Origin: Giardia intestinalis
Taxonomy: Eukaryota
DNA: 64,000 nucleotides
Assembly (NCBI GenBank): GCA_000002435.2
Contig: CM018793.1
Direction: 5' to 3' (one strand)
Below are positions 1,676 through 20,800 of the stretch, one piece after another; positions within the stretch are counted from its first letter, which is position 1; each line of letters begins with the position of its first letter. The translations under genes and the position numbers were made by a program. The notes below the pieces were generated by a model. It did no database searches, was not told the DNA's origin, and saw only the letters and a program-made list of their open reading frames with translations.

Positions 1676-1775
1676 CGCCCTTTTTCTTTCCCGTCCGCAG
1701 AAGCCGATTTGAAGTGGTTTGCAACACATATGTTGCTTGGCCGTTCTGCAACACATATGCTGCCGCGAATAAATA
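1676..1775. promoter_or_regulatory. divergent promoter region with a duplicated GCAACACATATG(T/C)TGC inverted-repeat motif
   Basis: 100-bp spacer between divergent ATGs. The sequence is ttgcaacacatatgttgc...ctgcaacacatatgctgc. The first copy is GCAACA-cata-TGTTGC (6-bp arms). aataaataATG lies at the right end. Confidence 0.4.
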
Positions 1776-4205: not shown

Positions 4206-4215
4206 TGAATTTACT
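4204..4215. terminator. stop/poly(A) palindrome AGTGAATTTACT shared by convergent genes
   Basis: Stops at 4203-4205 (+) and 4214-4216 (-). Arms are AGTGAAT (+) and AGTAAAT (-). Confidence 0.55.
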
Positions 4216-7159: not shown

Positions 7160-10100
7160 ATGGCAACCACTAGGGAACTCCTGACCATGCATCCCCAGCA
7201 GATGTCCGAGGACCAGCTCGCCCAGCTCAAGACGTCGCTCGAGACGCTCAACTACACCCAGCTCCGACAATACGTGCTCGGCCGCGTCAAGCCCCTCATC
7301 GAGAACGTCCGCAAGCACATCCAGGAGGACCCCGTCGGCTCGGTAGATCAAGTCCTCGACTTCCAGGACGGCTTCTGGTCCAAGGACCTGATCCAGCGCG
7401 TCCGCTGGAACCTCGCCCAGTTCAGGGTAAACGAGAAGAACCCCCGCAGAGTGCCGACCAGCAGAGCGAAGGAGGCGCTGGAGCTGAACTACATGACCGA
7501 CTACTCCTTCCGGCGCATCGTCTACCCGATCGTCGCAGACCTCGCCAAGGCTCTTTATCTCCGCGCAGAGGAAGCTAACCGCCGCAACACCGACGCTTCG
7601 GTGCGCTATGTCCCGCTTCTTGTCATGTTCAACCAGCAGAACACGTTCGGCTATCCGCCCCGCGTCGCCTTCCTCGTGACGCCTGCCGTCATCACGTTCC
7701 TCCGCGGATGGAAGGTCTTCGCCGACGGAGACGACGCCCACCAGCACTACCTCAACGCGGTCACGAGGGACGCGGCGCAGATCCACGGCGTCCAGTCCGC
7801 AGAGCCTGGCGAGATGCTCTACTGCTTCAACTGGGACCCCATTTTCGCCGGCACAGAGAGCGACCCCGAGAACCCCCGCAACGCCATGTTCTCCTTCGGG
7901 ACGATGTACGAGCCCGTCTTCATCTTCCAGATCCAGATCATCCGCACCAGAGAGGGCCAGCGGAAGCTCATCCACCGCAGGGGAGGTATGGCGCCCTTCA
8001 CGAACGACTCGTTCTTCGACCTCACGCGCTACCAGATCGAGAAGACAGGCGAGGGCTTCAAGAACAGCAAGGACACGTGTTTCCTCTACGCCCTCAAGCA
8101 GAGCGGCGTGCTGAGCGACGACGAGATACGGGCCGCCGCCTTCCACATCAACCAGGCCTCTGTCACCTTCGCGATGATCGACGCCATCGGCAAGCAGCTC
8201 TTCGTCTGCTTCCACATGCACATGGCAGACAGGGTCGTCCTCAAGGGCGCGCAGAAGAACCGCAAGGTTCCGCCGGGCGTCGCGATCCGGAACATCCACC
8301 TGGGCTTCGACTTCAACCACTACTACATCTTCGACGAGAAGCTCCCCTACAGCAAGACGTACGTGAACAACGCAGCCGTCATGATGGAGCACCACACATA
8401 CCCCGCGAACACGAACCTGCGCGAGGTCAACGTCAGAGACACCTTCCACCCGCAGACCAGGGAGCCGACGAAGAAGGTCGTCTTCGGCTACCACCGCGAC
8501 GACGACCCCCATACATGCTCGAGTCGGGACCTCATCCTCTCGCTCCACAAGCAGGGCCTCCTCAAGCCCATCCGCTCCGACAGCCTGCTGGCCATCAAGG
8601 AGTCCTTCATCCGCGAAGAGCACTACGAGGAGGACGCGCTCAACTACTGCGAGGACCAGCTGAAGGAGATCACGCCGAAGAAGAAGACCCAGTCGCCCAA
8701 GGACGTCTGGTTCGCAGACTTCGAGACGACGACCGACGGGGACCAGCACCACCCGTTCCTCCTCTGCTTCCACGGGATCAACAACGTCACGGGGACGTAC
8801 TGGGCGAAGGACTACAACAGCATCGGGGACATGGTCCGAGCGGCCTTCAACCGCCTCGCGATGCTCAACCGGCCCCAGCTGGTGTACTTCCACAACCTCA
8901 ACTACGACGGGGCCTTCGTCCTCCCGTACTTCGACGTCAAGAAGGACAGCATCGTCACCCTCGGGGCGAGCAAGATCATCGCGTTCACGATCCATGTCCG
9001 GCTGAGCGACGACCGGAAGAACAAGCCGATCCCGATCCACTTCCGGGACTCCTACGCCCTGATCACGGCTCCCCTCAGCAAGTTCGGCAAGATGTTCAAC
9101 CTCAACGTGCACAAGGAGGTCCTCCCGTACTCGTTCTACACCCAGGACAACGTCAAGAAGCTGTGCCAGGGCTTCAAGCCGACGCTCGAGGAGTACCTCT
9201 CGTACGAGATCGAGAGCAGGAGGGAGGAGCTCGAGCAGCTGCTCCGTACGCTGCCGGAGATGCTGGTAATAGACAGGGTCGACGCCTTCAAGTACGCCCA
9301 CTACTACTGCGCAAGAGACTGCCACGTGCTCAAGGACGGGGTGATGGGCTTCAGACGCCAGCTCCTCGAGGTCACGGGCATCGACGCCTTCACATCCATG
9401 ACGCTCCCGAGCATTGCCTACAACTTCCTCATCAACGAGAAGTGCTTCGAGGGCTGCTTCAACCTCAACACGGCGCCGCTCCTCTTCGTACGCCAGTGCG
9501 TGACGGGCGGGCGCTGCATGCTCCGGTGCAACGAGAAGCAGTACGTCGAGGGCGAGGTCATGGACTTCGACGCCGTCTCGCTGTATCCGTCTGCCATGGC
9601 GCGCCTCCACACCCTCATGGGCCACCCGAAGATCGTCGACCCCGAGAAGCACGACCTCGGCTGGCTCCTCCGGCAGGACGGCTGCTTCCTCGAGATCGAC
9701 ATCGAGGTCGTCCCGAAGCAGCTCGACTTCCCCCTCATCAACAGGCAGACGGAGAAGGGGAGGCACTTCTCGAACGAGCCGGGCCCGATGTTCGCCGACA
9801 ACATCACGATCGAGGACATCATCGAGTACCACAAGGTCCCGATGAACCGGATCAGGGTCCTCCGGGGCTACTACTACGACGAGGGCAAGAACACGAACAT
9901 CCAGGCCGTCATCCGGAAGATCTTCGAAGCGCGGCTCAAGTTCAAGGCGGAGGGCAACCCGCTCGAGAGCATCTACAAGCTCATCATGAACAGCTGCTAC
10001 GGGAAGAGCATCCTCAAGCCCGTCTACAAGCGGATGAACACGGTCGACCACGCGGGCCTTGAGAGAGAGCTCCTCGACAACTCGGCCGATGTCCTCTGCT

Positions 10101-10756
10101 GGGAGCCGCTCTACGACGGCGGCCGCTTCCTCCTCAAGCAGAGCAAGCCCCTTCTGGAGGCGAACAGCTTCCCGACGTTCGGGGTCCAGGTGCTCTCGAT
10201 GAGCAAGCGCATCATGACGGAGGTGATGGCGACGGCCCAGGACCACGGGCTCCCGATCTACTACACAGACACGGACAGCATCCACATCGACAAGGCGTCC
10301 ATCGAGCCCCTCCGGAACTACTTCCACGCGCGCTTCCAGCGGGAGCTCATCGGGAAGAACCTCGGCCAGTTCCACTCAGACTTCCCCGACAGCCCCTCCG
10401 GGGAGATGTTCGTCAGCCGCTACTTCATCGGCGTCGGCAAGAAGGCATACCTCGACATCCTCCAGGACAGCCAGAACAACATGAGCTACCACGCGCGCCT
10501 CAAGGGCATCCCCGAGCAGGCGATCCTCAACGAGGCCCGGCAGCGCTGCTCCCACAACTTCCTCGGCGGGCTCTACAACCTCTACGCGGACCTCTACAAC
10601 GGCGTGCCCCAGACCTTCAACCTCATCTACGACGGCGCGGTGCGCTTCGTGCGAGACGCCAGCCTCGCCTACCGCTGCAGGGACGACTTCAAGCGGAGAG
10701 TCATCTTCGAGAGGGAGCCCGATGAGCCCCTGAACATATCAAAGCTGATGCAGTAA
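7160..10756 (+). CDS. family-B DNA polymerase of the protein-primed type (pPolB), 1198 aa, with a ~500-aa N-terminal extension
   Basis: Exo I is VWFADFETTTDG (aa ~517-527). Exo II is FHNLNYDGAF (aa ~577-586). Exo III is YYCARDCHVL (aa ~715-724). Motif A is DFDAVSLYPSAM (aa 802-813). Motif B is KLIMNSCYGKS (aa 940-950). Motif C is YYTDTDSIH (aa 1034-1042). A KKAY motif lies at aa ~1094-1097. The stop lies in AGTAAAT. Confidence 0.92.
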   Translation: MATTRELLTMHPQQMSEDQLAQLKTSLETLNYTQLRQYVLGRVKPLIENVRKHIQEDPVGSVDQVLDFQDGFWSKDLIQRVRWNLAQFRVNEKNPRRVPTSRAKEALELNYMTDYSFRRIVYPIVADLAKALYLRAEEANRRNTDASVRYVPLLVMFNQQNTFGYPPRVAFLVTPAVITFLRGWKVFADGDDAHQHYLNAVTRDAAQIHGVQSAEPGEMLYCFNWDPIFAGTESDPENPRNAMFSFGTMYEPVFIFQIQIIRTREGQRKLIHRRGGMAPFTNDSFFDLTRYQIEKTGEGFKNSKDTCFLYALKQSGVLSDDEIRAAAFHINQASVTFAMIDAIGKQLFVCFHMHMADRVVLKGAQKNRKVPPGVAIRNIHLGFDFNHYYIFDEKLPYSKTYVNNAAVMMEHHTYPANTNLREVNVRDTFHPQTREPTKKVVFGYHRDDDPHTCSSRDLILSLHKQGLLKPIRSDSLLAIKESFIREEHYEEDALNYCEDQLKEITPKKKTQSPKDVWFADFETTTDGDQHHPFLLCFHGINNVTGTYWAKDYNSIGDMVRAAFNRLAMLNRPQLVYFHNLNYDGAFVLPYFDVKKDSIVTLGASKIIAFTIHVRLSDDRKNKPIPIHFRDSYALITAPLSKFGKMFNLNVHKEVLPYSFYTQDNVKKLCQGFKPTLEEYLSYEIESRREELEQLLRTLPEMLVIDRVDAFKYAHYYCARDCHVLKDGVMGFRRQLLEVTGIDAFTSMTLPSIAYNFLINEKCFEGCFNLNTAPLLFVRQCVTGGRCMLRCNEKQYVEGEVMDFDAVSLYPSAMARLHTLMGHPKIVDPEKHDLGWLLRQDGCFLEIDIEVVPKQLDFPLINRQTEKGRHFSNEPGPMFADNITIEDIIEYHKVPMNRIRVLRGYYYDEGKNTNIQAVIRKIFEARLKFKAEGNPLESIYKLIMNSCYGKSILKPVYKRMNTVDHAGLERELLDNSADVLCWEPLYDGGRFLLKQSKPLLEANSFPTFGVQVLSMSKRIMTEVMATAQDHGLPIYYTDTDSIHIDKASIEPLRNYFHARFQRELIGKNLGQFHSDFPDSPSGEMFVSRYFIGVGKKAYLDILQDSQNNMSYHARLKGIPEQAILNEARQRCSHNFLGGLYNLYADLYNGVPQTFNLIYDGAVRFVRDASLAYRCRDDFKRRVIFEREPDEPLNISKLMQ

Positions 10757-10763
10757 ATTTACT
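10752..10763. terminator. perfect 12-bp stop/poly(A) palindrome AGTAAATTTACT
   Basis: Stops at 10754-10756 (+) and 10763-10765 (-). Confidence 0.6.
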
Positions 10764-11794
10764 TAGCGCTCCATAATCTCCTTGAACCTCCCAAAGGTTA
10801 GAGGCTCAGCATTGAAGAACTTCTTCTTCCTTGCCCACGCAGAGAGACGATCGAAGAAAGCCTCAGACGATATCTGCTTGTCCCCAATGGTAAAGCTGTA
10901 ACGACGATCATGATACTCATCAATATCGAACCAGGCGTCTGTGATCGCAAACTGACGCGTAACAGCAGCTGCCTTTATCAAACAGTACTGGCCACCGCTC
11001 CATATGGTTCCCACATGACCCGGCTCTATCGCGACAACTGGGTTGTAAATGCCCTTATGCTCGAGGAGGAACTCGTTCGTCTGCCTGATCGTGTCAAGCG
11101 CATCGACCTCGCACAGACGATGAGGATCATCCGAGGCCCTGTCCTTGATGTGGTCCTCACAGACAGCCGGGTCGATAGCGAAGCGCACATGGAAGGCCGG
11201 AAGGATGCCTGCGCGGAGCATGTAGTGGTCGATCAGGTAGTGGAGGTACTGGCCTTGCTCCTTCGTGATGTAGCCGTCACTCATCTTGAAGAGGATGAAC
11301 GCGCTAGTAGACGGCAGCCAGCGGTCGAAGATGATGAAGTCGTACTGCTGATACTCTTCGGCAAAACGGCAATGAAGAAGCTGCTTCCCCAGTGCATGGA
11401 CCACCTGCTCCTGGAACTGGAAAGCAAGCTCCCTGGGGTTCTTGTAGTACTCCTCGAGGGTGATGCCTCCGTTCTGTCCAAAGTGGTTGTCTGCCACGGC
11501 CTCCTCGATGATGGTAGCTTCGAAGCCTTGGTCGATCAGGTACTTCTTGAGATGCTTGCAGAAGGTGGACTTGCCTGCGCCGATGGGACCGTCAACAACG
11601 ATGATGCGAGGATCAATGACAACAGGCGGCACAACTCTCGAACTGAAATCGCTGAGCTTCCATACGAGGTTATCGTCCATGTTGATCCCGATGTCAACTG
11701 ACTCCAGAAAGTCTTCGACTGGCCAGTGTGATGATTTACTATCGATGAGGCCTGGCTCAGCTGGCTGGTTCTGGGGCTCGTAGTACTGGCTCAT
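10763..11794 (-). CDS. deoxynucleoside kinase family protein (dNK/dCK-like P-loop kinase) with N- and C-terminal extensions
   Basis: The start was trimmed to MSQYYEPQNQ, which follows ggaaaataaa. The P-loop is VVDGPIGAGKST. Other dNK-like motifs are IIEEAV, LEEYYKNPRELAFQFQ and IIFDRWLPSTSAF (ERS-like), plus the lid-like HIKDRASDD. Order and spacing resemble Drosophila dNK and dCK/dGK. Confidence 0.75.
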   Translation of the reverse strand: MSQYYEPQNQPAEPGLIDSKSSHWPVEDFLESVDIGINMDDNLVWKLSDFSSRVVPPVVIDPRIIVVDGPIGAGKSTFCKHLKKYLIDQGFEATIIEEAVADNHFGQNGGITLEEYYKNPRELAFQFQEQVVHALGKQLLHCRFAEEYQQYDFIIFDRWLPSTSAFILFKMSDGYITKEQGQYLHYLIDHYMLRAGILPAFHVRFAIDPAVCEDHIKDRASDDPHRLCEVDALDTIRQTNEFLLEHKGIYNPVVAIEPGHVGTIWSGGQYCLIKAAAVTRQFAITDAWFDIDEYHDRRYSFTIGDKQISSEAFFDRLSAWARKKKFFNAEPLTFGRFKEIMER

Positions 11795-11867
11795 TTTATT
11801 TTCCCAGTAGTGCACGTCTCAAGAGCCAAACCATTTTAAAGTGAATTCTCCCCACGGAAATAAAAGT
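11795..11867. promoter_or_regulatory. conserved bidirectional intergenic cassette (copy C2)
   Basis: The sequence is tttattttcc...GCCAAACCATTTTAAAGTGAATTCTCCCC..GGAAATAAAAGTATG. Confidence 0.5.
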
Positions 11868-12122
11868 ATGGCTGGCCACCTTCTCAACAGCAACGGGACC
11901 GCGAAGAACGAGAACAAGCTCTACACCCAGAAGCCGACGCCCTTCTACGACGCGGGCACGGTGCCGGTCCGTCTGTCCTCGGTACCCTTCGAGAGCCGCA
12001 ACGAGCCGATCCGCGTCCAGATCGACGAGCCGCCCAAGCAGCGCCCGCGAGCTGGTCTAGTGCGCACCCGCAAGAGGATGATCCCGAGGAACCGCTGGAA
12101 GAGGAACGGGAACAAGCAGTAA
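11868..12122 (+). CDS. small basic protein (84 aa), island-specific
   Basis: The start was trimmed to MAGHLL, which follows GGAAATAAAAGT. The C-terminus is basic (RAGLVRTRKRMIPRNRWKRNGNKQ). A paralog lies at 18366-18617. The stop lies in AGTAAAC. Confidence 0.55.
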   Translation: MAGHLLNSNGTAKNENKLYTQKPTPFYDAGTVPVRLSSVPFESRNEPIRVQIDEPPKQRPRAGLVRTRKRMIPRNRWKRNGNKQ

Positions 12123-12131
12123 ACGTTTACT
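12118..12131. terminator. perfect 14-bp stop/poly(A) palindrome AGTAAACGTTTACT
   Basis: Stops at 12120-12122 (+) and 12127-12129 (-). Confidence 0.6.
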
Positions 12132-12723
12132 TCGAGATCTCCTCGAGGAAGCGGTTGAAGGTGTTCGTCTCGGTGGAGGCGTTGAGGAAGCGCTGGATGC
12201 CGTCAGCCCACGCCTGGGCGCTCTCGTCGCTGATGCTGAGACAGGTGGCTGTGTACGTGCGCTTGTTCTTGGGAAGCCTCGAGAGCCTCACGAACTCGTC
12301 TCCGGTCTCCTCGTAGAGATAGAAGGCAGAGCGTGCTCCATCAGAAGCGCGTCTGCAGAAAGCGGTGTAGTGAGGGGCTTGCACGAACTCGTCCTCGGGT
12401 CGCTTGACGAAGCGGAAGACGACGCCCTGCTGGTTGAGCCACTTGCAGAACCAGGAGGTGACTCGCTGATAGTCCTCAGTACCCTCAGCGCACTCTGCGG
12501 TGACTCGACCGAGCAGTCTTCCGACCTGGCCGCAAAAGGACTTAAACGCGGGACTGGACGGGGCGGGAGGATTTGCCACTGGCAGAACGGGCTCGGCGTC
12601 GGCGGTCTGTCGCTGTCGGGTTCTAGAGGCAGACTTCCTATGAGTGGGCTCTCTGGAGGAAGGAATGACATCTTGAAGGAAGGGGTCCTCGGCGAAGTGC
12701 TCTGGTATGAATCCATCTGCCAT
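12127..12723 (-). CDS. hypothetical protein (198 aa), island-specific
   Basis: The protein begins MADGFIPEHF and the ATG follows aggaaaataaaataagc. A paralog lies at 18622-19230, with the C-terminal ~130 aa well conserved. Confidence 0.6.
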   Translation of the reverse strand: MADGFIPEHFAEDPFLQDVIPSSREPTHRKSASRTRQRQTADAEPVLPVANPPAPSSPAFKSFCGQVGRLLGRVTAECAEGTEDYQRVTSWFCKWLNQQGVVFRFVKRPEDEFVQAPHYTAFCRRASDGARSAFYLYEETGDEFVRLSRLPKNKRTYTATCLSISDESAQAWADGIQRFLNASTETNTFNRFLEEISK

Positions 12724-12754
12724 GCTTATTTTATTTTCCTGGGAGCCCTGTAAC

Positions 12755-12826
12755 CAGATCAGATCAGAATTGATTCCTGATCAATTCGGACGAAGCGACG
12801 ACTCCAGAAAAAAAAATAACGCTGAC
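12755..12826. repeat. partial copy of the 5' part of repeat module R (GATCA/GAATTGAT iteron-like array plus A9-TAACGCTGAC)
   Basis: Patchy match to 13702-13792 and 19809-19905. It includes the 8-bp inverted repeat GAATTGAT-tcctg-ATCAATTC. Confidence 0.6.
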
Positions 12827-12839
12827 GTGAATTCGATGT

Positions 12840-13679
12840 TTACTTTGCAAACAGCTTTACGATGTCTTCCTTGTCTCCGGCAATGGCCAACGCAAAAACC
12901 CTACCATTATTGATGTCCTTCTCCTTATCTGCCAACAAAGCAGCACAAGCAGCATGGCCATTTCTCACAGCCCACTCGAAAGCAGTACCACGGGCGTTAT
13001 TGCATAACCTGGCCTCCTTATCTAACAACAGCTTGACGATGTCTGCGTAACCACAGGATGCTGCTAGCATGAGAGCGGTCCAGCCGTCGTTATCCTTCAT
13101 GCCTGCCTCCTTCTCCGCTAATAGGTTAGCGCACTTAGTGTGACCCTTACACGCAGCCCACATGAGAGCAGTCCTACCATCTTTATTCTTCATGCCGGCC
13201 TCCTTCTCTAACAACAGCTTAACGCTGTATGCGGAATCCTTGGATGCTGCTATTATGAGAGCCGACCCGCAGCATCTCGCACATATACCGGCCTCCTTCT
13301 TCACTAGCAGGTCAACGCACTTAAAATTAAACTTACTCACAGCCCACATGAGGGCGGTCCTACCGATGACATCCTTCATACCAGCCTCCTTCTCTAACAG
13401 CAGCTTAACGCAGTCTGTATAGCCTTCGGATGCTGCTATCATGAGAGCCGTCAAGCCGTGTCCATCACTCATACCAGCCTCCTTCTCCACTAGCAGGTTA
13501 GCGCAGTTAGTATGACCCTCCCTCGCAGCCCACATGAGGGCAGTCCAGCTGTTGAAATCCCTCAGGCCAGCCTCCTTGTCTACTAGTTCCCTGACGACAT
13601 CGATGTTACCTTGCGCTGCTGCTTCTATGAGATCCCTAAAACCATATCCTGGCGACTTGTATTCTCGATAAGCCTTCAT
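12840..13679 (-). CDS. ankyrin-repeat protein (279 aa, ~8 repeats of the TALMWAA..GH..CV.LL..KEAG type)
   Basis: A regular ~33-aa ANK periodicity runs through the whole ORF. The start is ggaaaataaaatATG. The stop lies in AAGTAAAC. Confidence 0.88.
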   Translation of the reverse strand: MKAYREYKSPGYGFRDLIEAAAQGNIDVVRELVDKEAGLRDFNSWTALMWAAREGHTNCANLLVEKEAGMSDGHGLTALMIAASEGYTDCVKLLLEKEAGMKDVIGRTALMWAVSKFNFKCVDLLVKKEAGICARCCGSALIIAASKDSAYSVKLLLEKEAGMKNKDGRTALMWAACKGHTKCANLLAEKEAGMKDNDGWTALMLAASCGYADIVKLLLDKEARLCNNARGTAFEWAVRNGHAACAALLADKEKDINNGRVFALAIAGDKEDIVKLFAK

Positions 13680-13701
13680 ATTTTATTTTCCTCCCCGCCC
13701 T

Positions 13702-14161
13702 GAATCAATTAATCAGATCAGAATCAATTCGTCAGAATGGTTTGCACTTCCTGACTGCCGCCTCCCAGAAAAAAAAAATAACGCTGGCCTGCTTTCTGCT
13801 TTCGGGCTGTCTGTATGTCGCACTTCGGTGTCGTGCGGGCCCGGGGGCAGGGAGCAGACCAGGCTGGCCGGCAGCTGAACCGGGCGCGAACGCATCACAC
13901 ACATCCAAGGACAACGCGGTCTCCTCCCGGCGTGCACGGCACCACGCTGGGCGGTTCCGGGGGGAGGCCGCGATTTTTTTTGAAAATTTACAGGTTTTTT
14001 ATTCTGTTGAAAAGTAGGTAAACGAGCGCCAGCGTGTGGGAGCCTAGTGGGCGGACCGGCACACGCAGACGCACTTGTGGGGGACGCTTTCGTTTTTTTG
14101 GGCCCAGCCCCGTGCAGGCCCAAAAAAACGAAAGTGGGCACCACAAGGATATATACTACTG
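13702..14161. repeat. repeat module R, copy A (~460 bp)
   Basis: Colinear with 19809-20231. The order is a GAATCA array, A10-TAACGCT, a conserved core GTATGTCGCAC..GGTGTCGTGCGGGC, ~190 bp of GC-rich sequence, T8 and an AT-rich tract, an 18-bp-stem hairpin (14087-14134), then GGATATATACTACTG. Homology stops abruptly after this last motif. Confidence 0.85.
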
Positions 14162-17100
14162 ACGCCCGCCGTCATCACGTTCCTCCGCGGCTGGAAGGTC
14201 TTCGCAGACGGCGACGACGCGCACCGGCACTACCTCAACGCGGTTACGAAGGACGCGGCGCAGATCCACGGCGTCCAGTCTGCAGAGCCCGGCGAGATGC
14301 TCTACTGCTTCAACTGGGACCCGGTCTTCGGGGGCACTGAGAGCGACCCCGAGAACCCCCACAACGCGCTCTTCTCGTTCGGGACGATGTACGAACCCGT
14401 CTTCTTCTTCCAGATCCAGATCGTGCGCATGAAGGATGGCCAGCGGAAGTTCATCCACCGGCGCGGCGGCCTGGCCCCCTTCACGAACGACTCGTTCTTC
14501 GACCTCAACCGCTACCAGATCGAGCGGACAGGCGAAGGCTTTCGGAACAGCAAGGACACGTGCTTCCTCTACGCTCTCAAGCAGAGCGGGCAGCTGAACG
14601 ACGAGGAGATCAAGGCCGCGGCGCTCCACATCAACCAGGCGGCGGTCACGTTCGCGATGGTCGACGCGATCGGCAAGCAGCTCTTCATCTGCTTCCACAT
14701 GCACATGCCGGACAGGGTCGTCCTCCGGGGCGCACAGAAGGGCCGCAAGCTCCCGCCCGGCGTCGCACTCCGGAACATCCAGATAGGCTTCGACTTCAAC
14801 CACTACTACATCTTCGACGAGAAGCTCCCCTACAGCAAGGCGTACGTGAACCACGCGTCCGTGATGATGGAGCACAACGCGTACCCGGAGAACGCGAACG
14901 TCCGCGAGGTCAGCGTCCGGAACACCTTCCACCCGGAGACCCGGGAGCCGATGCAGAAGGTCGTCTTCGGCTACCACCGCGACGACGACCCCCACACGTG
15001 CACGAGCCGCGACCTCCTCCTCTCGCTCCACAAGCAGGGCCTCCTCCGCCCGATCCGCTCAGACGACCTCCTCGCCGTCAAGGAGTCCTTCATCCGCGAG
15101 GAACACTACGCGGAGGACAACCTCGAGTTCTGCGAGAACCAACTCAAGAAGATCGAGCCCAAGAAGAAGCAGGCCCCGCCGAAGGACGTCTGGTTCGCGG
15201 ACTTCGAGACGACGACCGACGGGGACCAGCACCACCCGTTCCTCCTCTGCTTCCACGGGGCGAACAATGTGACGGGGACTACTGGGCGAAGGACTACACA
15301 GCATCGGGGACATGGTCCAGCGGCCTTCCCGCCTCGCGACCTCAACCGGCCCCAGCTGGTTACTTCACAACCTCAACTACGACGGGGCCTTCGTCCTCCC
15401 GTACTTCGACGTCAAAAGGACAGCATCGTCACCCTCGGGGCGAGCAAGATCATCGCGTTCACATCCACATCCGACTGAGCGACGACCGGAAGAACAAGCC
15501 GATCCCGATCCACTTCCGGGACTCCTACGCCCTGATCACGGCGCCCCTCAGCAAGTTCGGGAAGATGTTCAACCTCGACGTCCACAAGGAGGTCCTCCCG
15601 TACTCGTTCTACACGCAGGAGAACGTCCGCAAGCTCGCAGAGGGCTACCGGCCGACCCTCGAGGAGTACCTCTCGTACGAGATGGAGAGCAGACGGACCG
15701 AGCTCGAGCAGCTGGTCCGCATGCTGCCGGGGATGCTCGTCGAGGACCGCGTCGATGCGCTCCGCTACGCCCACTACTACTGCGCGCGGGACTGTCACGT
15801 GCTCAAGGAGGGCGTCCTCCGCTTCCGGCAGCAGCTCCTCGAGGTCACCGGGATCGACGCGTTCACGTCCATGACTCTCCCGAGCGTCGCGTACAACTAC
15901 CTCATCAACGAGAAGTGCTTCGAGGGCTGCTTCAACCTCAACACGGCTCCGCTTCTCTTCGTGCGCCAGTGCGTGACGGGCGGGCGCTGCATGCTCCGGA
16001 ACAACGAGAAGCAGTACGTCGAGGGCGAGATCATGGACTTCGACGCGGTCTCCCTGTACCCGTCCGCAATGGCGCGCATCTACACCCTCAAGGGCCACCC
16101 GAAGGTCGTCGACCCCGAGAAGCACGACCTCGGCTGGCTCCTCCGCCAGGACGGCTGCTTCCTCGAGATAGACATTCAGATCGTCCCGAAGACCCTCGAC
16201 TTCCCCCTCATCAACCGCCAGACGGAGAAGGGCCGCCACTTCTCAAACGAGCCAGGCCCGATGTTCGCGGACAACATCACGATCGAGGACATCATCGAGT
16301 ACCACAAGGTCCCGATGAACCGAATCCGCGTCCTCCGGGGCTACTACTACGACGAGGGGAAGAACTTCGCCATCCAGACCGTTATCCGGAAGCTCTTCGA
16401 TACGCGCCTCAAGTTCAAGGCGGAGGGCAACCCCCTTGAGAGCATCTACAAGCTCATCATGAACAGCTGCTACGGGAAAAGCATCCTCAAGCCCGTCTTC
16501 AAGCGGATGAACACCGTCGACCGGGCCGGGCTCGAGCGGGAGCTCCTCGACAACTCCGCCGACATCCTCTGCTGGGAGCCGCTCTACGACGGCGGCCGCT
16601 TCCTCCTCAAGCAGAGCCGCCCGCTCCTCATGGCGAACAGCTTCCCGACGTTCGGCGTCCAGGTCCTCTCGATGAGCAAGCGCATCATGACGGAGGTGAT
16701 GGCAACGGCCCAGGACCACGCGCTCCCGATCTACTACACGGACACCGACAGCATCCACATCGACAAGCGGTCAATAGAGCCGCTCCGGAACTACTTCCAC
16801 GCGCGCTTCCACCGCGAGCTCATCGGCAAGAACCTCGGCCAGTTCCACTCGGACTTCCCCGACAGCCCCTCCGGCGAGATGTTCGTCAGCCGCTTCTTCG
16901 TCGGCGTCGGCAAGAAGGCGTACCTCGACATCCTCCAGGACAGCCAGGGCCACATGAGCTACCACGCGCGCCTCAAGGGCATCCCCGAGCAGGCGATCCT
17001 CAACGAGGCCCGCCAGCGCTGCGCCCAGAACTTCCTCGGCGGGCTCTACAACCTCTACGCCGACCTCTACAACGGCGTCCCCCAGACCTTCAACCTCATC

Positions 17101-17229
17101 TACGACGGCGCCGTCCGCTTCGTCCGCGACGCGCACCTCGCCTACCGCTGCCGCGACGACTTCAAGCGCCGCGTCATCTTCGAGAAGGAGCCCGACGCGC
17201 CCCTGAACGTCGTCAAGCTCATGCAGTGA
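14162..17229 (+). pseudogene. second pPolB copy, 5'-truncated (starts at the equivalent of aa ~173) and frame-broken around Exo II
   Basis: The 14075-15478 frame and the 14560-17229 frame together are colinear with polB aa ~173-1198. Motifs A, B, C and KKAY are intact (DFDAVSLYPSAM, KLIMNSCYGKS, YYTDTDS). A net 10 nt are missing between 15274 and 15474. There is no ATG or promoter at the 5' junction with module R. Confidence 0.85.
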
Positions 17230-17236
17230 ATTTACT
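17225..17236. terminator. stop/poly(A) palindrome AGTGAATTTACT
   Basis: Stops at 17227-17229 (+) and 17232-17234 (-). Confidence 0.55.
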
Positions 17237-18293
17237 CCATGCTGCTCTCCTCGTCGCGCGCAAGGACCTCCTGGAACTCATCAAACGACAAGGCCATCAT
17301 CTGCATGCGGCGCTTGAACGGATTGACGAACCTCCCATATGCGGTCCAATCGCAGAGCTCGTTGAAGAAGACAAACGCGTTGATCCTGCGCATCCCGATC
17401 TGGACGAAGTAGCGGCGGTCCTCGCCGAGGAAGAGAGTATTCTCGACAACGTACTGGCGCGTCACCCTCGCGGCCGCGACGAGCGAGAACTGGTTCCCCG
17501 CCGAGAAGGCCTTGCTCCACTCGGTGTCCGCTGGATGGTTCAGGTTGAAGACCGGCGTGTAGACGCCCTTGTGCTTGAGGAGGAACTCGTTCGTCTTACT
17601 CACGACCCCGAGCGCGTCCTCCTCGCACTGGCGGTGTTCCTCCTCAGCAGCGCGCTGGACGATACGCTGCGCACAGATCAGCGGGTCCGTCGCAAAGCGG
17701 ACGTGTGTCGCCGGAAGGATCCCCGCGTACGACATGTAGACGTCGATCAGGTAGTGGAGGTACATCGCCTGGCGGCCCGTAATATGGCCCTCCTGCACCT
17801 GGAAAAGGACGAACGCACTCGTCGAGGGCAGCCAGCGGTCGAAGATGACGAGGTCGTAGTCCTTGTACTTGTCCGTGAAGCGGTACTCGAGGAGCTGGTC
17901 TGCGAGAGCATGTGTGACGGCGAGCTGGAAGCGGTACGCGTTGGCGTGCGGGTCCCTGTAATACTCGTCGAGCGTGATCCCGTACGCGCTGAAGCACTCG
18001 AGCCCCACAACCTCCTCGATGACCACTGCCTTCAGCCCGCTGTCCTGGGCGTGCTCGACAAGGCGGCGGCAGAAGAGGGACTTGCCGGCCCCGATGGGTC
18101 CGTCGACGACAATCATGCGCGGATCGACGCACGCCGGCGGGATGACGGATGCGTGCCGCGCCAGGCTCAACCCGCGAAGAGTGGACAGCTTCGAGTTCAC
18201 CTCGAGCAGCTCCTCGGACACGTCGTAGTAGAGGCTCGAGTGGCGGACAAGCTCGGTCCCGGGCTGGTTCTGGGGCTCGTAGTACAGGCTCAT
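17232..18293 (-). CDS. deoxynucleoside kinase family protein, divergent paralog of 10763-11794
   Basis: The start was trimmed to MSLYYEPQNQ, which follows ggaaataaa. The P-loop is VVDGPIGAGKSL. Also present are LDEYYRDPHANAYRFQ, VIFDRWLPSTSAF and HYLIDVYM. The ORF is intact. Roughly half its residues are shared with copy 1. Confidence 0.72.
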   Translation of the reverse strand: MSLYYEPQNQPGTELVRHSSLYYDVSEELLEVNSKLSTLRGLSLARHASVIPPACVDPRMIVVDGPIGAGKSLFCRRLVEHAQDSGLKAVVIEEVVGLECFSAYGITLDEYYRDPHANAYRFQLAVTHALADQLLEYRFTDKYKDYDLVIFDRWLPSTSAFVLFQVQEGHITGRQAMYLHYLIDVYMSYAGILPATHVRFATDPLICAQRIVQRAAEEEHRQCEEDALGVVSKTNEFLLKHKGVYTPVFNLNHPADTEWSKAFSAGNQFSLVAAARVTRQYVVENTLFLGEDRRYFVQIGMRRINAFVFFNELCDWTAYGRFVNPFKRRMQMMALSFDEFQEVLARDEESSME

Positions 18294-18365
18294 TTTATTT
18301 CCTGGCGGCCTCCCCAATAAATGCCAAAGCATTTGAAAGTGAATTCTCCCGCCAAAAATAAAAGT
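18294..18365. promoter_or_regulatory. conserved bidirectional intergenic cassette (copy C3)
   Basis: The sequence is tttatttcc...GCCAAAGCATTTGAAAGTGAATTCTCCCGCCAAAAATAAAAGTATG. Confidence 0.5.
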
Positions 18366-18617
18366 ATGGCAGGCCACCTCCTCAGCAGCAAGGGGACCAC
18401 GAAAAACGAGAACAAGCTCTTCACCCAGAAGCCGACGCCCTTCTACGACGCAGGCACCGTCCCGGTCCGCCTCGCGTCCGTGCCCTTCGAGAACCGCAAC
18501 GAGCCGATTCGCGTCCAGATCGACGAGCCGCCCAAGCCCCGCCCTCGCGCAGGCCTCGTCCGCACCCGCAAGAGGCTGATCCCGAGGAACCGCTGGAAGA
18601 AGAACACGTACCAGTAA
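18366..18617 (+). CDS. small basic protein (83 aa), paralog of 11868-12122
   Basis: The protein reads MAGHLLSSKGTTKNENKLFTQKPTPFYDAGTVPVRL... About 70 of its first 79 residues are identical to copy 1. Confidence 0.55.
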   Translation: MAGHLLSSKGTTKNENKLFTQKPTPFYDAGTVPVRLASVPFENRNEPIRVQIDEPPKPRPRAGLVRTRKRLIPRNRWKKNTYQ

Positions 18618-18626
18618 ATGTTTACT
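18613..18626. terminator. stop/poly(A) palindrome AGTAAA-tg-TTTACT
   Basis: Stops at 18615-18617 (+) and 18622-18624 (-). Confidence 0.55.
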
Positions 18627-19230
18627 TCGAGATCTCCTCGAGGAAGCGAGCGAACGTGCCCGGCTCGGTCGAGGCGTTGAGGAAGCACTGGATGCCCTCT
18701 GCCCACTGCAGCGCCTGCTCGTCGGTGAGGCACGGACTTGTCGCCGTGTACGAGCGCTTGAACTTCGGGAGCCGCGACAGCCTCACTAACTCCTCCCCGG
18801 TCTCCTCTAAGAGGTAGAAGGCAGAGCGCACTCCATCTGATGCTCGCCTGCAGAAGGCGGTGTAGTGGGGCGCGCGCACGAACTCGTCCTCGGGCCTCTT
18901 GACGAAGCGGAAGATGACCCCGAGCTGGTTGAGCCACTGGCAGAACCAGGCCGTGACTCGCTCGTAGTCCTCCGTGCCCTCGGCGCAGTCGGCAGTAATG
19001 CGGCCCAGTAGTCTTCCCACCTGGCCACAGAAGCTCTTGAAGGGCGGGCCGGCGCGGGCGGATGTCTGCTGTGCGGGCTCGGGGTGCGAAGTCTGCTGAA
19101 CGGGGTCGGGGTCGGCGTGCGCTCGAGCCTTGAGGGGGCTTCGCTTGCGAGAGGATCCTCGAGGAGGGAGGGCGATGTCTTGCGTGAAGAGGTCCTCGGT
19201 GTAATGCTCAGGAATGATGCCATCTGCCAT
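18622..19230 (-). CDS. hypothetical protein (202 aa), paralog of 12127-12723
   Basis: The start was trimmed to MADGIIPEHY, matching copy 1. The core FKSFCGQVGRLLGR.TA.CAEGTEDY.RVT.WFC.WLNQ.GV.FRFVKRPEDEFV.APHYTAFCRRASDG is shared. Confidence 0.6.
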   Translation of the reverse strand: MADGIIPEHYTEDLFTQDIALPPRGSSRKRSPLKARAHADPDPVQQTSHPEPAQQTSARAGPPFKSFCGQVGRLLGRITADCAEGTEDYERVTAWFCQWLNQLGVIFRFVKRPEDEFVRAPHYTAFCRRASDGVRSAFYLLEETGEELVRLSRLPKFKRSYTATSPCLTDEQALQWAEGIQCFLNASTEPGTFARFLEEISK

Positions 19231-19343
19231 GCGTCCTTTTATTTTCTTGACGCTCCTATCATAAAGACGCAAACCATTTCAAATCCACTTCTACCAAACA
19301 ATATTAAATTCACTTCCTTCCGGCGTCTGCAGAAAAAAAAAAA

Positions 19344-19787
19344 ATGCTGGACCTCCGCAAGCTTAACAAGGAGGACTTCGAGCAGGCCATAGCCACCTTC
19401 ATCGAGCGTGCTCTTGACCTCGAACGGCCGGAAGATCTGAACAAAGACGAGCCGATTTATAACAGAAGCTATCTCCAGATCGACCCCGTCACGCACGGAG
19501 AGTATAACCTCACCCCGGCCGTTCTCTGGTCGCTGATAGTTATGACACTGACCTCCTATGGCCTTACAATGTTTACTGAGGACGACTGTCTTTGCGTGCA
19601 ATATGGCAAAATATACAAGTTTCCCATCGAGCCGGCAGACGAAGACGTTCTCAGAGAGATACACTATGCCATACACGTTGAAGCGACAGAAGACTTGGAA
19701 CTCTTCCCCCAGACCGAAGAGGAGATCGTGGCAGCGTTCAAACAGATACTTGGCGGACAGATAGAATTCCACATCCGACCCAAGTAA
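19344..19787 (+). CDS. hypothetical acidic protein (147 aa), found only in unit 2
   Basis: The ATG directly follows an ~11-nt A-run. The stop lies in AAGTAAAC. No paralog is present in unit 1. It occupies the slot held by the ankyrin gene in unit 1. Confidence 0.5.
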   Translation: MLDLRKLNKEDFEQAIATFIERALDLERPEDLNKDEPIYNRSYLQIDPVTHGEYNLTPAVLWSLIVMTLTSYGLTMFTEDDCLCVQYGKIYKFPIEPADEDVLREIHYAIHVEATEDLELFPQTEEEIVAAFKQILGGQIEFHIRPK

Positions 19788-19808
19788 ACCTGCGCTCCTC
19801 GGTCATGC

Positions 19809-20231
19809 GAATCAATTCCCGAATCAGAATCAAATCAAAATCAATTCGTCACAATTAATTGCACGAGGGGTCTCACAGGGCTCAGAAAAAAAAAATTACG
19901 CTGACCTGCCGGGCTGTCTGTATGTCGCACCTCGGTGTCGTGCGGGCCCGACAGGCTGGCTGGCTGGCCGGCAGCTGAACTGAGCCTCGAACGTACCACA
20001 CCCACAACGCGTCTCCTCCCGGCGTGCACAGTTCACGCTGGGCGGTTCCGGGGGGAGGCGCGTTTTTTTTAGAAAAATTACAGGTTTTTTATTCTATCAA
20101 AAATCATAATGTTTGGACGGGAGATTGCAGCAGGGAGAACAAAATCGCGGCGGTCGTTTTCGTTTTTTTGGGTAAGGCCCCCGGCCGGCCCAAAAAAACG
20201 AAAGCGGGCGCCTCGAGGATATATACTACTG
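19809..20231. repeat. repeat module R, copy B (~423 bp)
   Basis: Same element order as copy A: GAATCA array, A10-TTACGCT, GTATGTCGCACCTCGGTGTCGTGCGGGC, GC-rich core, T8, hairpin at 20158-20203, GGATATATACTACTG. Confidence 0.85.
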
Positions 20232-20359
20232 GCGTGCTCCCTGTAGAGGTGATCGCGCTCTCTACGTTGATCGAGCACGATATTGTACAACTTCTTCACT
20301 TTGAGGTTGCGGCGCCTTATTTGGGTTCTAGCTCGTTCAAAGAGCTCCCCGTCGGTTCT

Positions 20360-20445
20360 AACAGGCCCCAGCTCGTCCACTTCCACAGCCTCAACTACGA
20401 CGGGGCTTTCATCCTTCGACATCAAGGAGGACTCCATCGTCACCG
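20360..20445 (+). pseudogene. third, isolated pPolB fragment covering only the Exo II region
   Basis: It translates to RPQLVHFHSLNYDGAFI....DSIVT, compared with polB NRPQLVYFHNLNYDGAFVLPYFDVKKDSIVT. The flanks are unrelated to polB. Confidence 0.65.
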
Positions 20446-20699
20446 CACGAGGCACCCCGCAGGTCCGGGAGGGCCCGAGCATCGGCCAATCCACGACAGC
20501 ACCAACGATGGCGAAGCAGACCCACAACCATCCCACACTCTGGGCCGGACTCCCGCCCCGCGGGCCCTACTCTGCCCCGCCGCCGCTGGCCCTGCGCCCT
20601 GGGTCGGAGCGGCGGCCCGCGCCCCCGCAAGCCTCTCGGCCGCCGGAGATGCCGCGGCGCCACGCGCTGGGCCGCCCCGGGACCCGGCGCCGTCTTCCA

Positions 20700-20800
20700 A
20701 AAAACCCAAACCATTGCAAATCGGAATCTCTCCCGGAAAATAAAATGACGCCGGCGCTGCCGGTATGTCGCACCGAGGTGTCGTGCGGGCGCCTGGAAGG
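20700..20800. repeat. orphan copy of the polB-type promoter cassette fused to the R-module core
   Basis: The sequence is ACCCAAACCATTGCAAATCGGAATCTCTCCCGGAAAATAAAATGACG (compare 7112-7156), followed by GGTATGTCGCACCGAGGTGTCGTGCGGGC (compare 13812-13840). Confidence 0.6.

What the first reader, a model, noticed from the sequence alone, without database searches (positions are those of the whole stretch)
13702..14161. Repeat module R has a razor-sharp 3' boundary joined to different internal points of element genes: candidate element terminus or origin
Seen: R-A (13702-14161) and R-B (19809-20231) are colinear. Both end ...GGATATATACTACTG, after which homology stops at once. R-A is joined to polB codon ~173. 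R-B is joined to a RING-like fragment and then a polB Exo II fragment. Read inward from that end, the sequence is CAGTAGTATATATCC..., an AGT-AGT triplet reiteration followed by an AT-rich run. Established: protein-primed replicons carry short terminal reiterations used for sliding-back or jumping-back. The adenovirus ITR starts CATCATCAATAATATACC, with the same triplet-repeat-then-ATATA(C/T)C layout. Inference (speculative): R is the terminal repeat/origin of a linear pPolB genome. On that view, the array records element ends joined to broken element interiors, by nested self-insertion or end-joining of linear copies. Both copies here are in direct orientation, so a TIR partner would have to lie left of the window.
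Basis: partly seen in the sequence, partly recalled or inferred. Interest (0 to 1): 0.7.

Follow-up and report, generated by a model that had tools for sequence, protein, structure and literature searches.

The report
Giardia endogenous polinton-like virus genome end
The repeat is the end-piece (terminal inverted repeat) of a polinton/Maverick-like linear DNA virus integrated several times in a Giardia intestinalis chromosome, and its sharp edge is the physical end of that viral genome, the same end seen on free 19-20 kb viral genomes in metagenomes.

Summary
R-A (13699-14161) and R-B (~19809-20231) are colinear, and both end in AGGATATATACTACTG, where homology stops. R-A abuts polB codon 173.

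The window is Giardia intestinalis WB.
- A 19.9-kb metagenomic contig encoding a 55%-identical pPolB, an A32-type packaging ATPase and a weak rve-like integrase physically ends in ...TTATATACTACT.
- That end is preceded by the same subterminal palindrome as in R.
- A sister 18.9-kb long-read contig carries near-perfect 238-nt inverted repeats at both physical ends.
- Related Giardia contigs hold the predicted inverted partner (CAGTAGTATATATCC...) at the left end of the element, which extends left of the window.

The terminus is joined to different DNA at five junctions:
- the polB interior;
- a fragment mosaic;
- unrelated sequence;
- both ends of a bacterial-like 1.3-kb filler.

The two units are different lineages, not a simple duplication. 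Copy 2 polB is a frameshifted pseudogene that is closer to another assemblage's polB.

Origin function, jumping-back on AGTAGT and the joining mechanism (integrase or end-joining) remain inferred.

R is a new member of a known kind: a polinton-type TIR. The Giardia context is noteworthy.

The parts
13699..14161 (.). R-A: complete terminal repeat (right TIR) of element copy 1, running from the promoter-proximal region of the terminal ank gene to the genome terminus.
   Evidence: Colinear with R-B. 93% identical to the L006 R, whose contig ends at the same base. Its architecture is shared with the ends of the free viral contigs.
13702..13747 (.). Inner TIR iterons (AATCA(A/G)(T/A)T-type repeats).
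   Evidence: Repeat family D20. The same GAATTGATT iterons occur in 5-6 copies in the L013/L023 TIRs. A partial duplicate lies upstream of o198 at 12745-12790.
13766..13792 (.). A10 tract followed by TAACGCTGG.
   Evidence: Family D13, four copies in the window (12804, 13766, 19330, 19883). Also present in the L001 and L013 R copies.
13803..13843 (.). Conserved GC-rich core: CGGGCTGTCTGTATGTCGCAC..GTGTCGTGCGGGCCCG.
   Evidence: Family D11: 98% identical in R-B, and a third copy at 20753-20793. Duplicated in the L001 and L013 R copies.
13915..13980 (.). GC-rich hairpin followed by a T8 run.
   Evidence: DNA fold -24.5 kcal/mol, z = -4.1. R-B equivalent -22.7 kcal/mol, z = -4.5. A G/C indel on both arms keeps the stem intact.
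14074..14147 (.). Subterminal palindrome: 31-nt arms with an invariant T7GGG/CCCA7 core.
   Evidence: Inverted repeat I1. DNA fold -31.3 kcal/mol, z = -7.5. Of 26 pairs, 16 show changes on both sides across 7 termini; 92.8% of cells are paired, against 36-56% when the structure is slid.
14148..14161 (.). Terminal motif GATATATACTACT(G). Read inward it is 5'-(C)AGTAGTATATATC, the AGT-AGT reiteration at the genome end.
   Evidence: Identical in R-B. Contigs L006 and L007 end at ...ACTACT. It is the start of the inverted left TIR in L017/L020.
19809..20231 (.). R-B: terminal repeat of the older element copy 2 (palindrome 20145-20216, terminal motif 20217-20231).
7160..10756 (+). [quoted passage not shown]
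   Evidence: Pfam PF03175, 128 bits. Exact match to XP_001707488. 98% aa identical to L006 and 55% to the free-virus polB.
14160..17229 (+). polB2: pseudogene lacking codons 1-172, joined directly to the R-A terminus.
   Evidence: 89% nt identity to polB1 and 91% to L004 polB. Eight small deletions between 15279 and 15462 break the reading frame.
10763..13679 (-). Right-arm genes of copy 1: dNK1 (10763-11815), o198 (12127-12723) and ankyrin (12840-13679).
   Evidence: Pfam dNK and Ank. dNK is 40% identical to the free-virus dNK.
17232..19787 (.). Right-arm genes of copy 2: dNK2 (17232-18377, minus), o216 (18622-19272, minus) and o147 (19344-19787, plus).
   Evidence: dNK2 is orthologous to the single dNK of L001/L004/L008/L013.
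8..7090 (.). Further element genes left of polB: RING protein (8-607, minus), o809 (1776-4205, plus) and o958 (4214-7090, minus). The element continues left of the window.
   Evidence: o958 matches the free-virus terminal 918/1022-aa protein (30% over 740 aa, E 2e-86). The o809 N-terminus matches the viral 247-aa protein (E 2e-18). L014 shows rve-like, A32 and other viral homologues further left.
20288..20790 (.). Remnants of a third, oldest copy: RING-gene piece (20288-20371, minus), polB Exo II piece (20360-20444), polB-upstream-like piece (20709-20750) and R-core piece (20750-20790).

Best explanation
R is the terminal inverted repeat of a polinton/Maverick-like linear dsDNA virus. The virus carries a pPolB, an A32-type packaging ATPase and a weak rve-like integrase, and it is endogenised in the Giardia intestinalis WB chromosome. 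The sharp 3' boundary ...ATATACTACT(G) is the physical terminus of the viral genome.

Reading from the inside of the element to its end, R contains:
- the promoter region of the terminal gene;
- AATCAATT-type iterons;
- an A10 tract;
- a GC-rich core;
- a GC hairpin with a T8 run;
- a 26-31-bp-arm subterminal palindrome with an invariant T7GGG/CCCA7 centre;
- 14 nt further on, the end 5'-AGTAGTATATA.

Inferred mechanism. In the free virus the two ends act as origins of protein-primed replication. Priming occurs on the internal AGT repeat, and translocation back to the terminal AGT (adenovirus/Bam35-style jumping-back) restores the end. The palindrome is an auxiliary origin, packaging or hairpin element.

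The array in the window records successive invasions of one locus. The youngest copy (intact polB1, R-A) has its right terminus joined to codon 173 of the polB of an older copy (frameshifted polB2, R-B). That copy's terminus in turn abuts scraps of a still older copy. The termini are preserved to within 1 nt at every junction. This points to integrase-type or terminal-protein-protected joining rather than ragged breakage.
For: Shown:
- The host is Giardia WB, by exact protein matches.
- pPolB matches PF03175 at 128 bits.
- R-A and R-B are colinear and share an identical 16-nt end.
- Free contig L007 ends at ...TTATATACTACT behind a homologous palindrome.
- The 18,931-bp contig_3874 has inverted repeats at both ends, 237 of 238 positions identical with one indel.
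- The left TIR occurs in inverted orientation in the Giardia contigs L017 and L020, and L023 matches L013 at 244/246 positions.
- The palindrome covaries: 16 of 26 pairs are compensated and 92.8% of cells are paired. Fold z-scores range from -6.8 to -10.6.
- The A32 ATPase hit is above the Pfam cut-off, and all 6 members of the 336-342-aa family hit rve weakly.
- The window genes o958, o809 and dNK are homologous to free-virus genes.
- The element extends left of the window, with rve-like and A32 genes.
- The units are not simple duplicates. polB2 is 91.1% identical to L004 polB but only 88.9% to polB1. dNK1 and dNK2 differ strongly: each is only about 45% identical to the other type's orthologue.
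- The terminus is joined to five different sequences.

From the literature:
- Polintons are 13-25 kb with 100-1,500-bp TIRs and 5-8-bp TSDs (PMC10748475).
- Jumping-back on terminal repeats is established for adenovirus and Bam35 (PMC5175343).
Against: - The inverted partner is shown only in sister lineages.
- No capsid protein, protease or convincing DDE triad was identified by sequence.
- No TSD could be paired.
- Contig ends at ACTACT could reflect an assembly-graph branch at a polymorphic junction rather than a physical DNA end. L006 is a chromosomal contig.
- Four of five junctions have G after ACTACT, and three read G-N-C-G. The exact terminal nucleotide is therefore uncertain by 1 to a few nt.
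- A terminal protein and origin activity are untested.
- The gene order of the endogenous element differs from that of the free genomes.
Confidence: 0.85

Rival explanations
1. This is an ordinary tandem segmental duplication of a about 6.5-kb host segment. R is just the intergenic region at the end of the duplicated block, and the 'boundary' is the duplication breakpoint.
For: The units 7677-14159 and 14160-20231 are head-to-tail and colinear. There is 1-2 nt of microhomology at the junction.
Against: - The same end nucleotide bounds R where it meets polB, a fragment mosaic, unrelated DNA in L001 and bacterial-like filler in L017. It is also the end of the contigs L006 and L007.
- An inverted copy exists at the other end of the element.
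- The units are not sister copies. polB2 is closer to L004 polB (91.1%) than to polB1 (88.9%). The dNK genes differ strongly: each is only about 45% aa identical to the other type's orthologue.
Confidence: 0.03
2. R is a structured non-coding RNA gene or a regulatory (promoter/terminator) module of the host, conserved for that reason.
For: Two strong conserved hairpins lie next to T runs. The inner part of R is duplicated upstream of other minus-strand genes, which suggests promoter function.
Against: - There is no Rfam family at gathering threshold in the whole window.
- R occurs only at element ends, in inverted orientation at the two ends, and at the physical ends of free genomes.
- Promoter function for the terminal gene is compatible with R being a TIR. 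In contig_3874 the TIR also runs up to the ATG of both terminal genes.
Confidence: 0.05
3. R is the terminus of the element, but the junctions arose through host non-homologous or microhomology-mediated joining of free linear viral DNA to chromosome breaks, or through one-sided homologous recombination plus end-joining. They did not arise through integrase-mediated nested transposition. This is a rival only for the joining step.
For: - T/TG (possibly TGACG) microhomology at the R-A/polB junction.
- A 1.3-kb bacterial-like filler is captured between two termini in L017.
- Fragment mosaics follow R-B.
- Copy 1 shares its left flank with the single-copy loci of other assemblages, as expected if its left side entered by homologous recombination.
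Against: - The termini are intact to within 1 nt at all five junctions, which is more typical of integrase or transposase chemistry.
- The element encodes an rve-like protein.
- From my own knowledge, not checked here: Giardia is reported to lack canonical Ku/Lig4 NHEJ.
Confidence: 0.4

Closest known systems
Polintons/Mavericks (polintoviruses) of eukaryotes
   Same: - A protein-primed family B polymerase.
- An A32/FtsK-type packaging ATPase.
- An rve-like protein.
- A linear genome of 19-20 kb, with TIRs of about 240-460 bp that begin 5'-AG.
- Integration into the host chromosome in several copies.
   Different: - The integrase match is below the Pfam threshold.
- No capsid proteins or protease were recognised by sequence.
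- No TSD was demonstrable.
- The copies sit nested or serially at a single locus, not dispersed.
- The endogenous copy is rearranged relative to the free genomes and carries dNK, ankyrin and RING genes.
- The host (Giardia) has no described polinton in the literature searched.
Adenovirus inverted terminal repeat / origin (CATCATCAATAATATACC...)
   Same: - A linear genome replicated by a pPolB.
- The terminus starts with a doubled trinucleotide followed by an AT-rich TATA-like block.
- A symmetric element lies just inside the core, where adenovirus has its NFI site (the adenovirus layout is from my own knowledge).
- The layout fits jumping-back priming (PMC5175343).
   Different: - No sequence homology was shown; the resemblance is one of layout only.
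- The repeat unit is AGT rather than CAT.
- The subterminal element is a long (26-31 bp arm) covarying palindrome rather than a short factor-binding site.
- The terminal protein is unknown. It may be the about 470-aa N-terminal region of polB upstream of Exo I (inference).
Tectivirus (PRD1, Bam35) and phi29-type protein-primed replicons
   Same: Short terminal reiterations are used for sliding-back or jumping-back, and the genomes have inverted terminal repeats. Bam35 ends in 3'-ATAATA (PMC5175343).
   Different: - These are bacterial hosts.
- Their TIRs are much shorter (6-110 bp; from my own knowledge).
- They have no integrase and no chromosomal arrays.
Endogenous polinton-like viruses and virophages of protists (Bellas et al. 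2023, PMC10120064)
   Same: Integrated mid-size dsDNA viral elements with TIRs in protist genomes, often multi-copy and decaying.
   Different: That survey lists Giardia genomes among those screened, but no Giardia element is described in its main text. In the window, copies accumulate at one syntenic locus that is conserved across assemblages, and the polB is intact and highly conserved.

Membership tests
Polinton/Maverick | [quoted passage not shown] | tested here: met
   PF03175 at 128 bits, E 5e-37, for window 7160-10756. The free-genome homologues are 55% identical.
Polinton/Maverick | Retrovirus-like (rve, DDE) integrase | tested here: inconclusive
   All 6 members of the 336-342-aa family hit PF00665, best E 6.6e-5, but below the gathering score (18.9 against 32.6 bits for L007). 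The PDB profile search found nothing. The gene lies left of the window (L014 11396-12424).
Polinton/Maverick | Terminal inverted repeats of 100-1,500 bp | tested here: met
   contig_3874 has inverted repeats with 237 of 238 positions identical and one indel. L013 and L023 match at 244/246 in inverted orientation. The L017 left TIR is the inverse of R. The definition is from PMC10748475.
Polinton/Maverick | 5-8-bp target site duplication | tested here: inconclusive
   The left and right flanks of one and the same copy were never both available. The flanks that were seen do not match one another: GACGCC, GGCGTG, GGCCTC, and ACGGTA (reverse complement).
Polinton/Maverick | Virion module (DJR major capsid protein, penton, A32-type ATPase, Ulp1-like protease) | tested here: inconclusive
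   The ATPase is met: PF04665 at 26.9 bits against a cut-off of 22.8, with precomputed PF04665 on P0089-P0096. No capsid or protease match was found in Pfam or PDB sequence searches.
Protein-primed linear replicon terminus (origin) | The physical DNA end coincides with the repeat boundary | tested here: met
   Contig L007 ends at ...ATATACTACT. contig_3874 begins 9 nt inside the same alignment. L006 ends at the same base. Caveat: a contig end is not direct proof of a molecular end.
Protein-primed linear replicon terminus (origin) | Short terminal sequence reiteration that allows sliding-back or jumping-back | tested here: met
   5'-AGTAGT at the very end in L007 and L006, and in all integrated copies.
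Protein-primed linear replicon terminus (origin) | [quoted passage not shown] | not testable with these tools
   This needs biochemistry or protease-dependent recovery of the ends.
Adenovirus ITR core origin | Conserved ATAATATACC core at nt 9-18 | tested here: not met
   The termini read AGTAGTATATA(T/A)C.... The layout is similar but the core sequence is different.
Simple tandem duplication | The two units are each other's closest relatives along their whole length | tested here: not met
   polB2 is closer to L004 polB (91.1%) than to polB1 (88.9%). dNK1 and dNK2 are each only about 45% aa identical to the other type's orthologue. One unit has ank where the other has o147.
Known structured RNA (Rfam) | Match to a curated covariance model | tested here: not met
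   There were 0 matches at gathering threshold in the 64-kb window.

The most novel reading that the evidence does not exclude
Giardia and close relatives are hosts to a still-active polinton-like DNA virus with free 19-20-kb linear genomes bearing AGTAGT termini. This virus repeatedly re-invades one chromosomal locus that already holds older copies. The endogenous polB is kept intact by selection, and the viral ends can capture foreign DNA, including bacterial DNA, into the parasite genome. It would be the first DNA virus of Giardia and a defined route for gene acquisition in a minimal eukaryotic genome.
Probability: 0.45. Interest if true: 0.8.

Novelty: new member of a known kind. Interest (0 to 1): 0.62.

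Why it matters
Giardia is a major human parasite with a streamlined genome. From my own knowledge, it has very few mobile elements (three non-LTR retrotransposon families) and only RNA viruses. Fixing the exact terminus of an endogenous polinton-like virus has four consequences.

1. It defines the element's limits: about 27 kb or more, extending left of the window.
2. It links the element to free linear genomes in gut metagenomes, which are a candidate DNA virus of Giardia-like hosts.
3. It gives a concrete, testable origin sequence, AGTAGT plus a covarying palindrome, for protein-primed replication in polintons. No polinton origin has been characterised experimentally, to my knowledge.
4. It exposes a locus where viral ends have joined to older copies and to bacterial DNA, which bears on how foreign genes enter this genome.

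Tried and rejected
- The Rfam scan of the whole window found nothing.
- IMG/VR scans with the free-virus polB and with a polB alignment found no relatives.
- The JGI metagenome scan gave only one distant (29%) polB on a 3.9-kb contig, which was of no use for termini.
- PDB profile searches for the rve-like family and for the 505-1000-aa capsid candidate found nothing meaningful.
- Pfam on the free-virus proteins gave only the A32 hit and a weak rve hit.
- I tried to reach the WB left TIR. The window RING protein gave Logan contigs that stop about 1.4 kb short. P0093 and P0089 gave sister-lineage contigs, which hold either the left TIR (L017/L020) or only its inner part (L021-L023).
- Structure prediction of capsid candidates was not possible, because only window proteins or proteins returned by the homologue search may be submitted.
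- I considered whether the island's dNK genes are the characterised Giardia dAK. The published primer is absent from the window, so this remains unresolved.
- L009 carries a truncated polB next to low-GC bacterial-looking DNA. It could be another capture or a chimeric contig, and was not resolved.
- The Kapitonov & Jurka 2006 paper is not held. The 5'-AG polinton terminus is therefore from my own memory only.
Full report
**What the window is.** The window is densely packed with intronless ORFs. Pfam finds a Giardia variant-specific surface protein, an SF-assemblin/giardin, TBCC and a Glu/Gln-tRNA synthetase. Exact-sequence look-ups place these proteins in Giardia intestinalis WB C6, on a 4.02-Mb chromosome. 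A GC-rich stretch (57-63%, apart from one 2-kb bin at 54%, against 46-55% over the rest of the window to its right) runs from about 8 to 24 kb. It holds these features:
- a protein-primed family B polymerase (polB1, 7160-10756; PF03175, 128 bits);
- a deoxynucleoside-kinase-like gene (dNK1);
- a 198-aa ORF (o198);
- an ankyrin gene (ank);
- R-A;
- a second, truncated polB (polB2);
- a second dNK-like gene (dNK2);
- two small ORFs (o216, o147);
- R-B.

**Checking the observation.** R-A (13699-14161) and R-B (about 19809-20231) align colinearly at 72% identity (E 4e-63). Both end in the identical 16-mer AGGATATATACTACTG. This 16-mer occurs only at these two places. Even with up to 3 mismatches allowed, only 0.14 matches are expected by chance. 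Similarity stops there.
- From 14160 the sequence is 89% identical to polB1 from 7677 onward, which is codon 173. T or TG is shared at the joint, so the junction is defined to within 1-2 nt.
- After R-B there is a weak minus-strand fragment of the RING-protein gene (20288-20371).
- Next comes an 85-nt polB Exo II fragment (20360-20444), then small pieces resembling the polB upstream region and the R core.

**Anatomy of R.** Running inward from the ank start codon, R contains:
- AATCAATT-type iterons (13702-13747);
- an A10-TAACGCTGG tract (13766-13792);
- a conserved GC-rich core (13803-13843);
- a GC hairpin followed by T8 (13915-13980; z = -4.1), in which a G/C indel on both arms between R-A and R-B keeps the stem intact;
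- an AT-rich stretch and a variable spacer;
- a palindrome with 31-nt arms and an invariant T7GGG/CCCA7 centre (14074-14147; -31.3 kcal/mol as DNA, z = -7.5);
- the 14-nt end GATATATACTACT(G).

The inner part of R (iterons plus A tract) is also duplicated upstream of o198 (12745-12830) and upstream of o147. This suggests it includes the promoter region of the terminal gene.

**Relatives elsewhere.** A homologue search with polB1 returned only 12 clusters. Fetching their contigs gave two kinds of locus.

*Giardia-like chromosomal contigs (L001, L004, L006, L008, L013).* Here polB sits in the same synteny, with o809 and o958 on its left and dNK plus an o198-like gene on its right.
- L001, from a long-read assembly, has a single unit. 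Its R equivalent ends ...CCCAAAAAAACGTAAATGAGCACCGTGCGGAATACATACTACTG and is then followed by unrelated sequence.
- L006 (polB 98% identical) carries an R that is 93% identical to R-A, and the contig ends exactly at ...ATATACTACT.

*Two contigs of 19,920 bp (L007) and 18,931 bp (contig_3874 = L012 + L010).* These carry no host genes.
- They encode a polB 55% identical to the window's and a dNK.
- They encode an A32-type packaging ATPase (PF04665, 26.9 bits, above the cut-off).
- They encode a 336-aa protein with a weak rve match, plus several ORFs of unknown function.
- L007 physically ends ...CCATCTATACTTTTTTGAAGGTATGTTCAAAAAAGTATAGATGGGCTGTGATTGTTATATACTACT. That is a T6/A6-centred palindrome followed by the same ATATACTACT.
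- contig_3874 has inverted repeats at both physical ends, 237 of 238 positions identical with one 1-nt indel, running up to the ATG of both terminal genes. Its left end aligns with the reverse complement of the L007 end from nucleotide 10 onward.
- contig_3874 comes from the same sample (ERZ27273579) as the Giardia-like chromosomal contig L013.
- Its genes are preceded by the same AAAATAAAAT-ATG arrangement as the window's genes.

**The element is larger than the window shows.** o958 is homologous to the 918/1022-aa terminal gene of the free genomes (30% over 740 aa, E 2e-86). The N-terminus of o809 matches their 247-aa gene, and both dNKs match their dNK. Looking up the window's RING protein gave WB-type contigs (L014-L016) that continue left of the window. 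They carry homologues of:
- the viral 201-aa and 326-aa proteins;
- the rve-like protein;
- the 508-aa protein;
- the A32 ATPase (60% identical to the viral one).

R-A and R-B are therefore at the right end of an element of about 27 kb or more.

**The predicted inverted partner.** In the contigs L017 and L020, from Giardia isolate sequencing runs, the left end of the element begins ...GGTTTACCGT|CAGTAGTATATATCCTCGCGGCGCCCATTTGCGGTTTTTTGGG...CCCAAAAAAACG. This is R's terminus and palindrome in inverted orientation. In another lineage, the inner 246 nt at the left end (L023) match the right-end R of L013 at 244/246 positions, in inverted orientation. The whole of R, not only its tip, is therefore the TIR.

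**Conservation of the palindrome.** I aligned seven termini: R-A, R-B, L006, L001, the L017 left TIR, L007 and contig_3874. A 26-pair helix is 92.8% paired, against 36-56% when the partner columns are slid. Sixteen pairs change on both sides, and none of 500 shuffles reaches the observed covariation. What is conserved is self-complementarity, the T/A-run centre and a fixed distance of 13-15 nt from the end. The arm sequences themselves vary.

**The array is not a simple duplication.**
- polB2 lacks codons 1-172 and carries eight small deletions that break the frame.
- polB2 is 91.1% identical to L004 polB but only 88.9% identical to polB1. polB1 is 97.6% identical to L006 polB and 86.0% to L004 polB.
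- dNK2 is the orthologue of the single dNK in L001, L004, L008 and L013. dNK1 occurs only with the L006/WB-type unit. The two types are far apart: each is only 45-47% aa identical to the other type's orthologue.
- Unit 2 is therefore the older, resident copy. Unit 1 is a different lineage whose right terminus is joined inside the resident polB.
- To the right of R-B only scraps of a third copy remain.
- The state of the polB copies degrades from left to right: intact, then frameshifted, then fragments. I infer that new copies successively invaded the same locus.

**Junction inventory.** After ...ATA(T/C)ATACTACT the sequence continues as follows:

| Terminus | Continuation | What it is |
|---|---|---|
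| R-A | GACGCC | polB2 |
| R-B | GGCGTG | fragment mosaic |
| L001 | GGCCTC | unrelated sequence |
| L017 left TIR (read outward) | GACGGT | filler |
| L017 1545 | TATATT | filler |
| L006, L007 | nothing | contig end |

- The L017 filler (1546-2883) has 29% GC, whereas the 11.4 kb of L017 to its right (2884 to the contig end) has 59%. It carries a 5'-truncated Rpn-family PD-(D/E)XK nuclease ORF that is 30-33% identical to genes on Clostridium plasmids. Bacterial-like DNA therefore appears to have been captured between two viral ends.
- The termini are intact to within 1 nt at every junction.
- Four of the five junctions start with G, and three read G-N-C-G. This could mean that the true end is one or a few nt longer, that there is a target preference, or chance. 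I could not decide among these.

**Mechanism (inferred).**
- A linear genome with TIRs, a pPolB and a terminal AGT-AGT reiteration fits protein-primed initiation on an internal repeat followed by translocation back to the end. This is established for adenovirus (CAT-CAT) and for Bam35 (PMC5175343).
The adenovirus core ATAATATACC is absent.
- The subterminal palindrome sits where adenovirus has its auxiliary NFI site (from my own knowledge). Its covariation favours a role as a hairpin or cruciform, or as a symmetric site that co-evolves with its binding protein.
- polB has about 470-520 conserved residues upstream of Exo I. This region is a candidate for a fused terminal-protein domain (inference).
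- The junctions could have been made by the rve-like integrase or by end-joining. This remains open. Intact termini favour the integrase. Microhomology, the captured filler and the fragment mosaics favour end-joining.

**Comparison with what is known.** Polintons/Mavericks are defined by a pPolB and a retrovirus-like integrase. They are 13-25 kb, with 100-1,500-bp TIRs and 5-8-bp TSDs (PMC5499653 abstract; PMC10748475).
- The polymerase, TIR and size criteria are met.
- The ATPase is present.
- The integrase match is only weak.
- Capsid genes and a TSD were not demonstrated.
- I therefore call the element polinton/Maverick-like rather than a proven member.

The Giardia pPolB has appeared in polymerase phylogenies (PMC4642659). 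Giardia genomes were among those screened by Bellas et al.. I found no description of a Giardia element, its termini or free relatives in the searchable literature.

**Verdict.** R is the TIR of an endogenous polinton-like virus, and its razor-sharp edge is the genome terminus. This is a new member of a known kind. It has added interest because of the host, the free-genome relatives, the serial self-targeted insertions and the captured bacterial DNA.

Noticed in passing
L017 1546-2883 (also L020 1-853): A 1,338-bp filler with 29% GC carries a 5'-truncated Rpn-family PD-(D/E)XK nuclease ORF, 30-33% aa identical to genes on Clostridium plasmids. It lies exactly between a right-type terminus (...ATATACTACT) and the inverted left TIR (CAGTAGTATAT...). 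This looks like bacterial DNA captured at viral ends in a Giardia isolate lineage.
   Followed up: partly
window 7160-10756 compared with 1776-7090: polB1 is 98% aa identical between WB and L006, whereas the adjacent o809 and o958 are only 77% and 72% identical. The endogenous polymerase seems to be under strong purifying selection, or was recently exchanged.
   Followed up: partly
window 10763-11815 (-) and 17232-18377 (-): There are two dNK-like genes inside the element. Each is only 45-47% aa identical to the other type's orthologue, and each is about 40-44% identical to the free-virus dNK. The published primer for the characterised Giardia deoxyadenosine kinase is not in the window, so their relation to the parasite's essential salvage kinases is unresolved.
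   Followed up: partly
L009 1-6110: A polB that starts at about codon 364 abuts DNA that is only 38-41% GC over its first 2 kb and looks bacterial (HTH_26, Zn-ribbon ORFs, a tRNA-like 5' end). This is either another capture at a broken element or a chimeric contig.
   Followed up: no
window 12840-13679 (-): The ankyrin gene has a 93-nt periodic internal repeat. It is present only in the WB/L006-type unit. It appears to be inserted into the inner TIR, duplicating the iteron and A-tract segment (12745-12830 and 13702-13792).
   Followed up: partly
window 19330-19787 (+): The o147 ORF starts inside an R-like A-run (CAGAAAAAAAAAAAATGCTGG). It has no homologue in the other unit, so it may be a young ORF born in TIR-derived sequence.
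   Followed up: no
termini: window 14161 and 20231; L001 16813; L017 2884: Four of five integrated junctions have G immediately after ACTACT, and three read G-N-C-G, whereas both contig ends stop at ACTACT. It is unresolved whether this reflects the true terminal nucleotides, a target preference or chance.
   Followed up: partly
window 54008-60238 (+): A 2,076-aa variant-specific surface protein gene (PF03302) with an EGF-like N-terminal region, unrelated to the finding.
   Followed up: no
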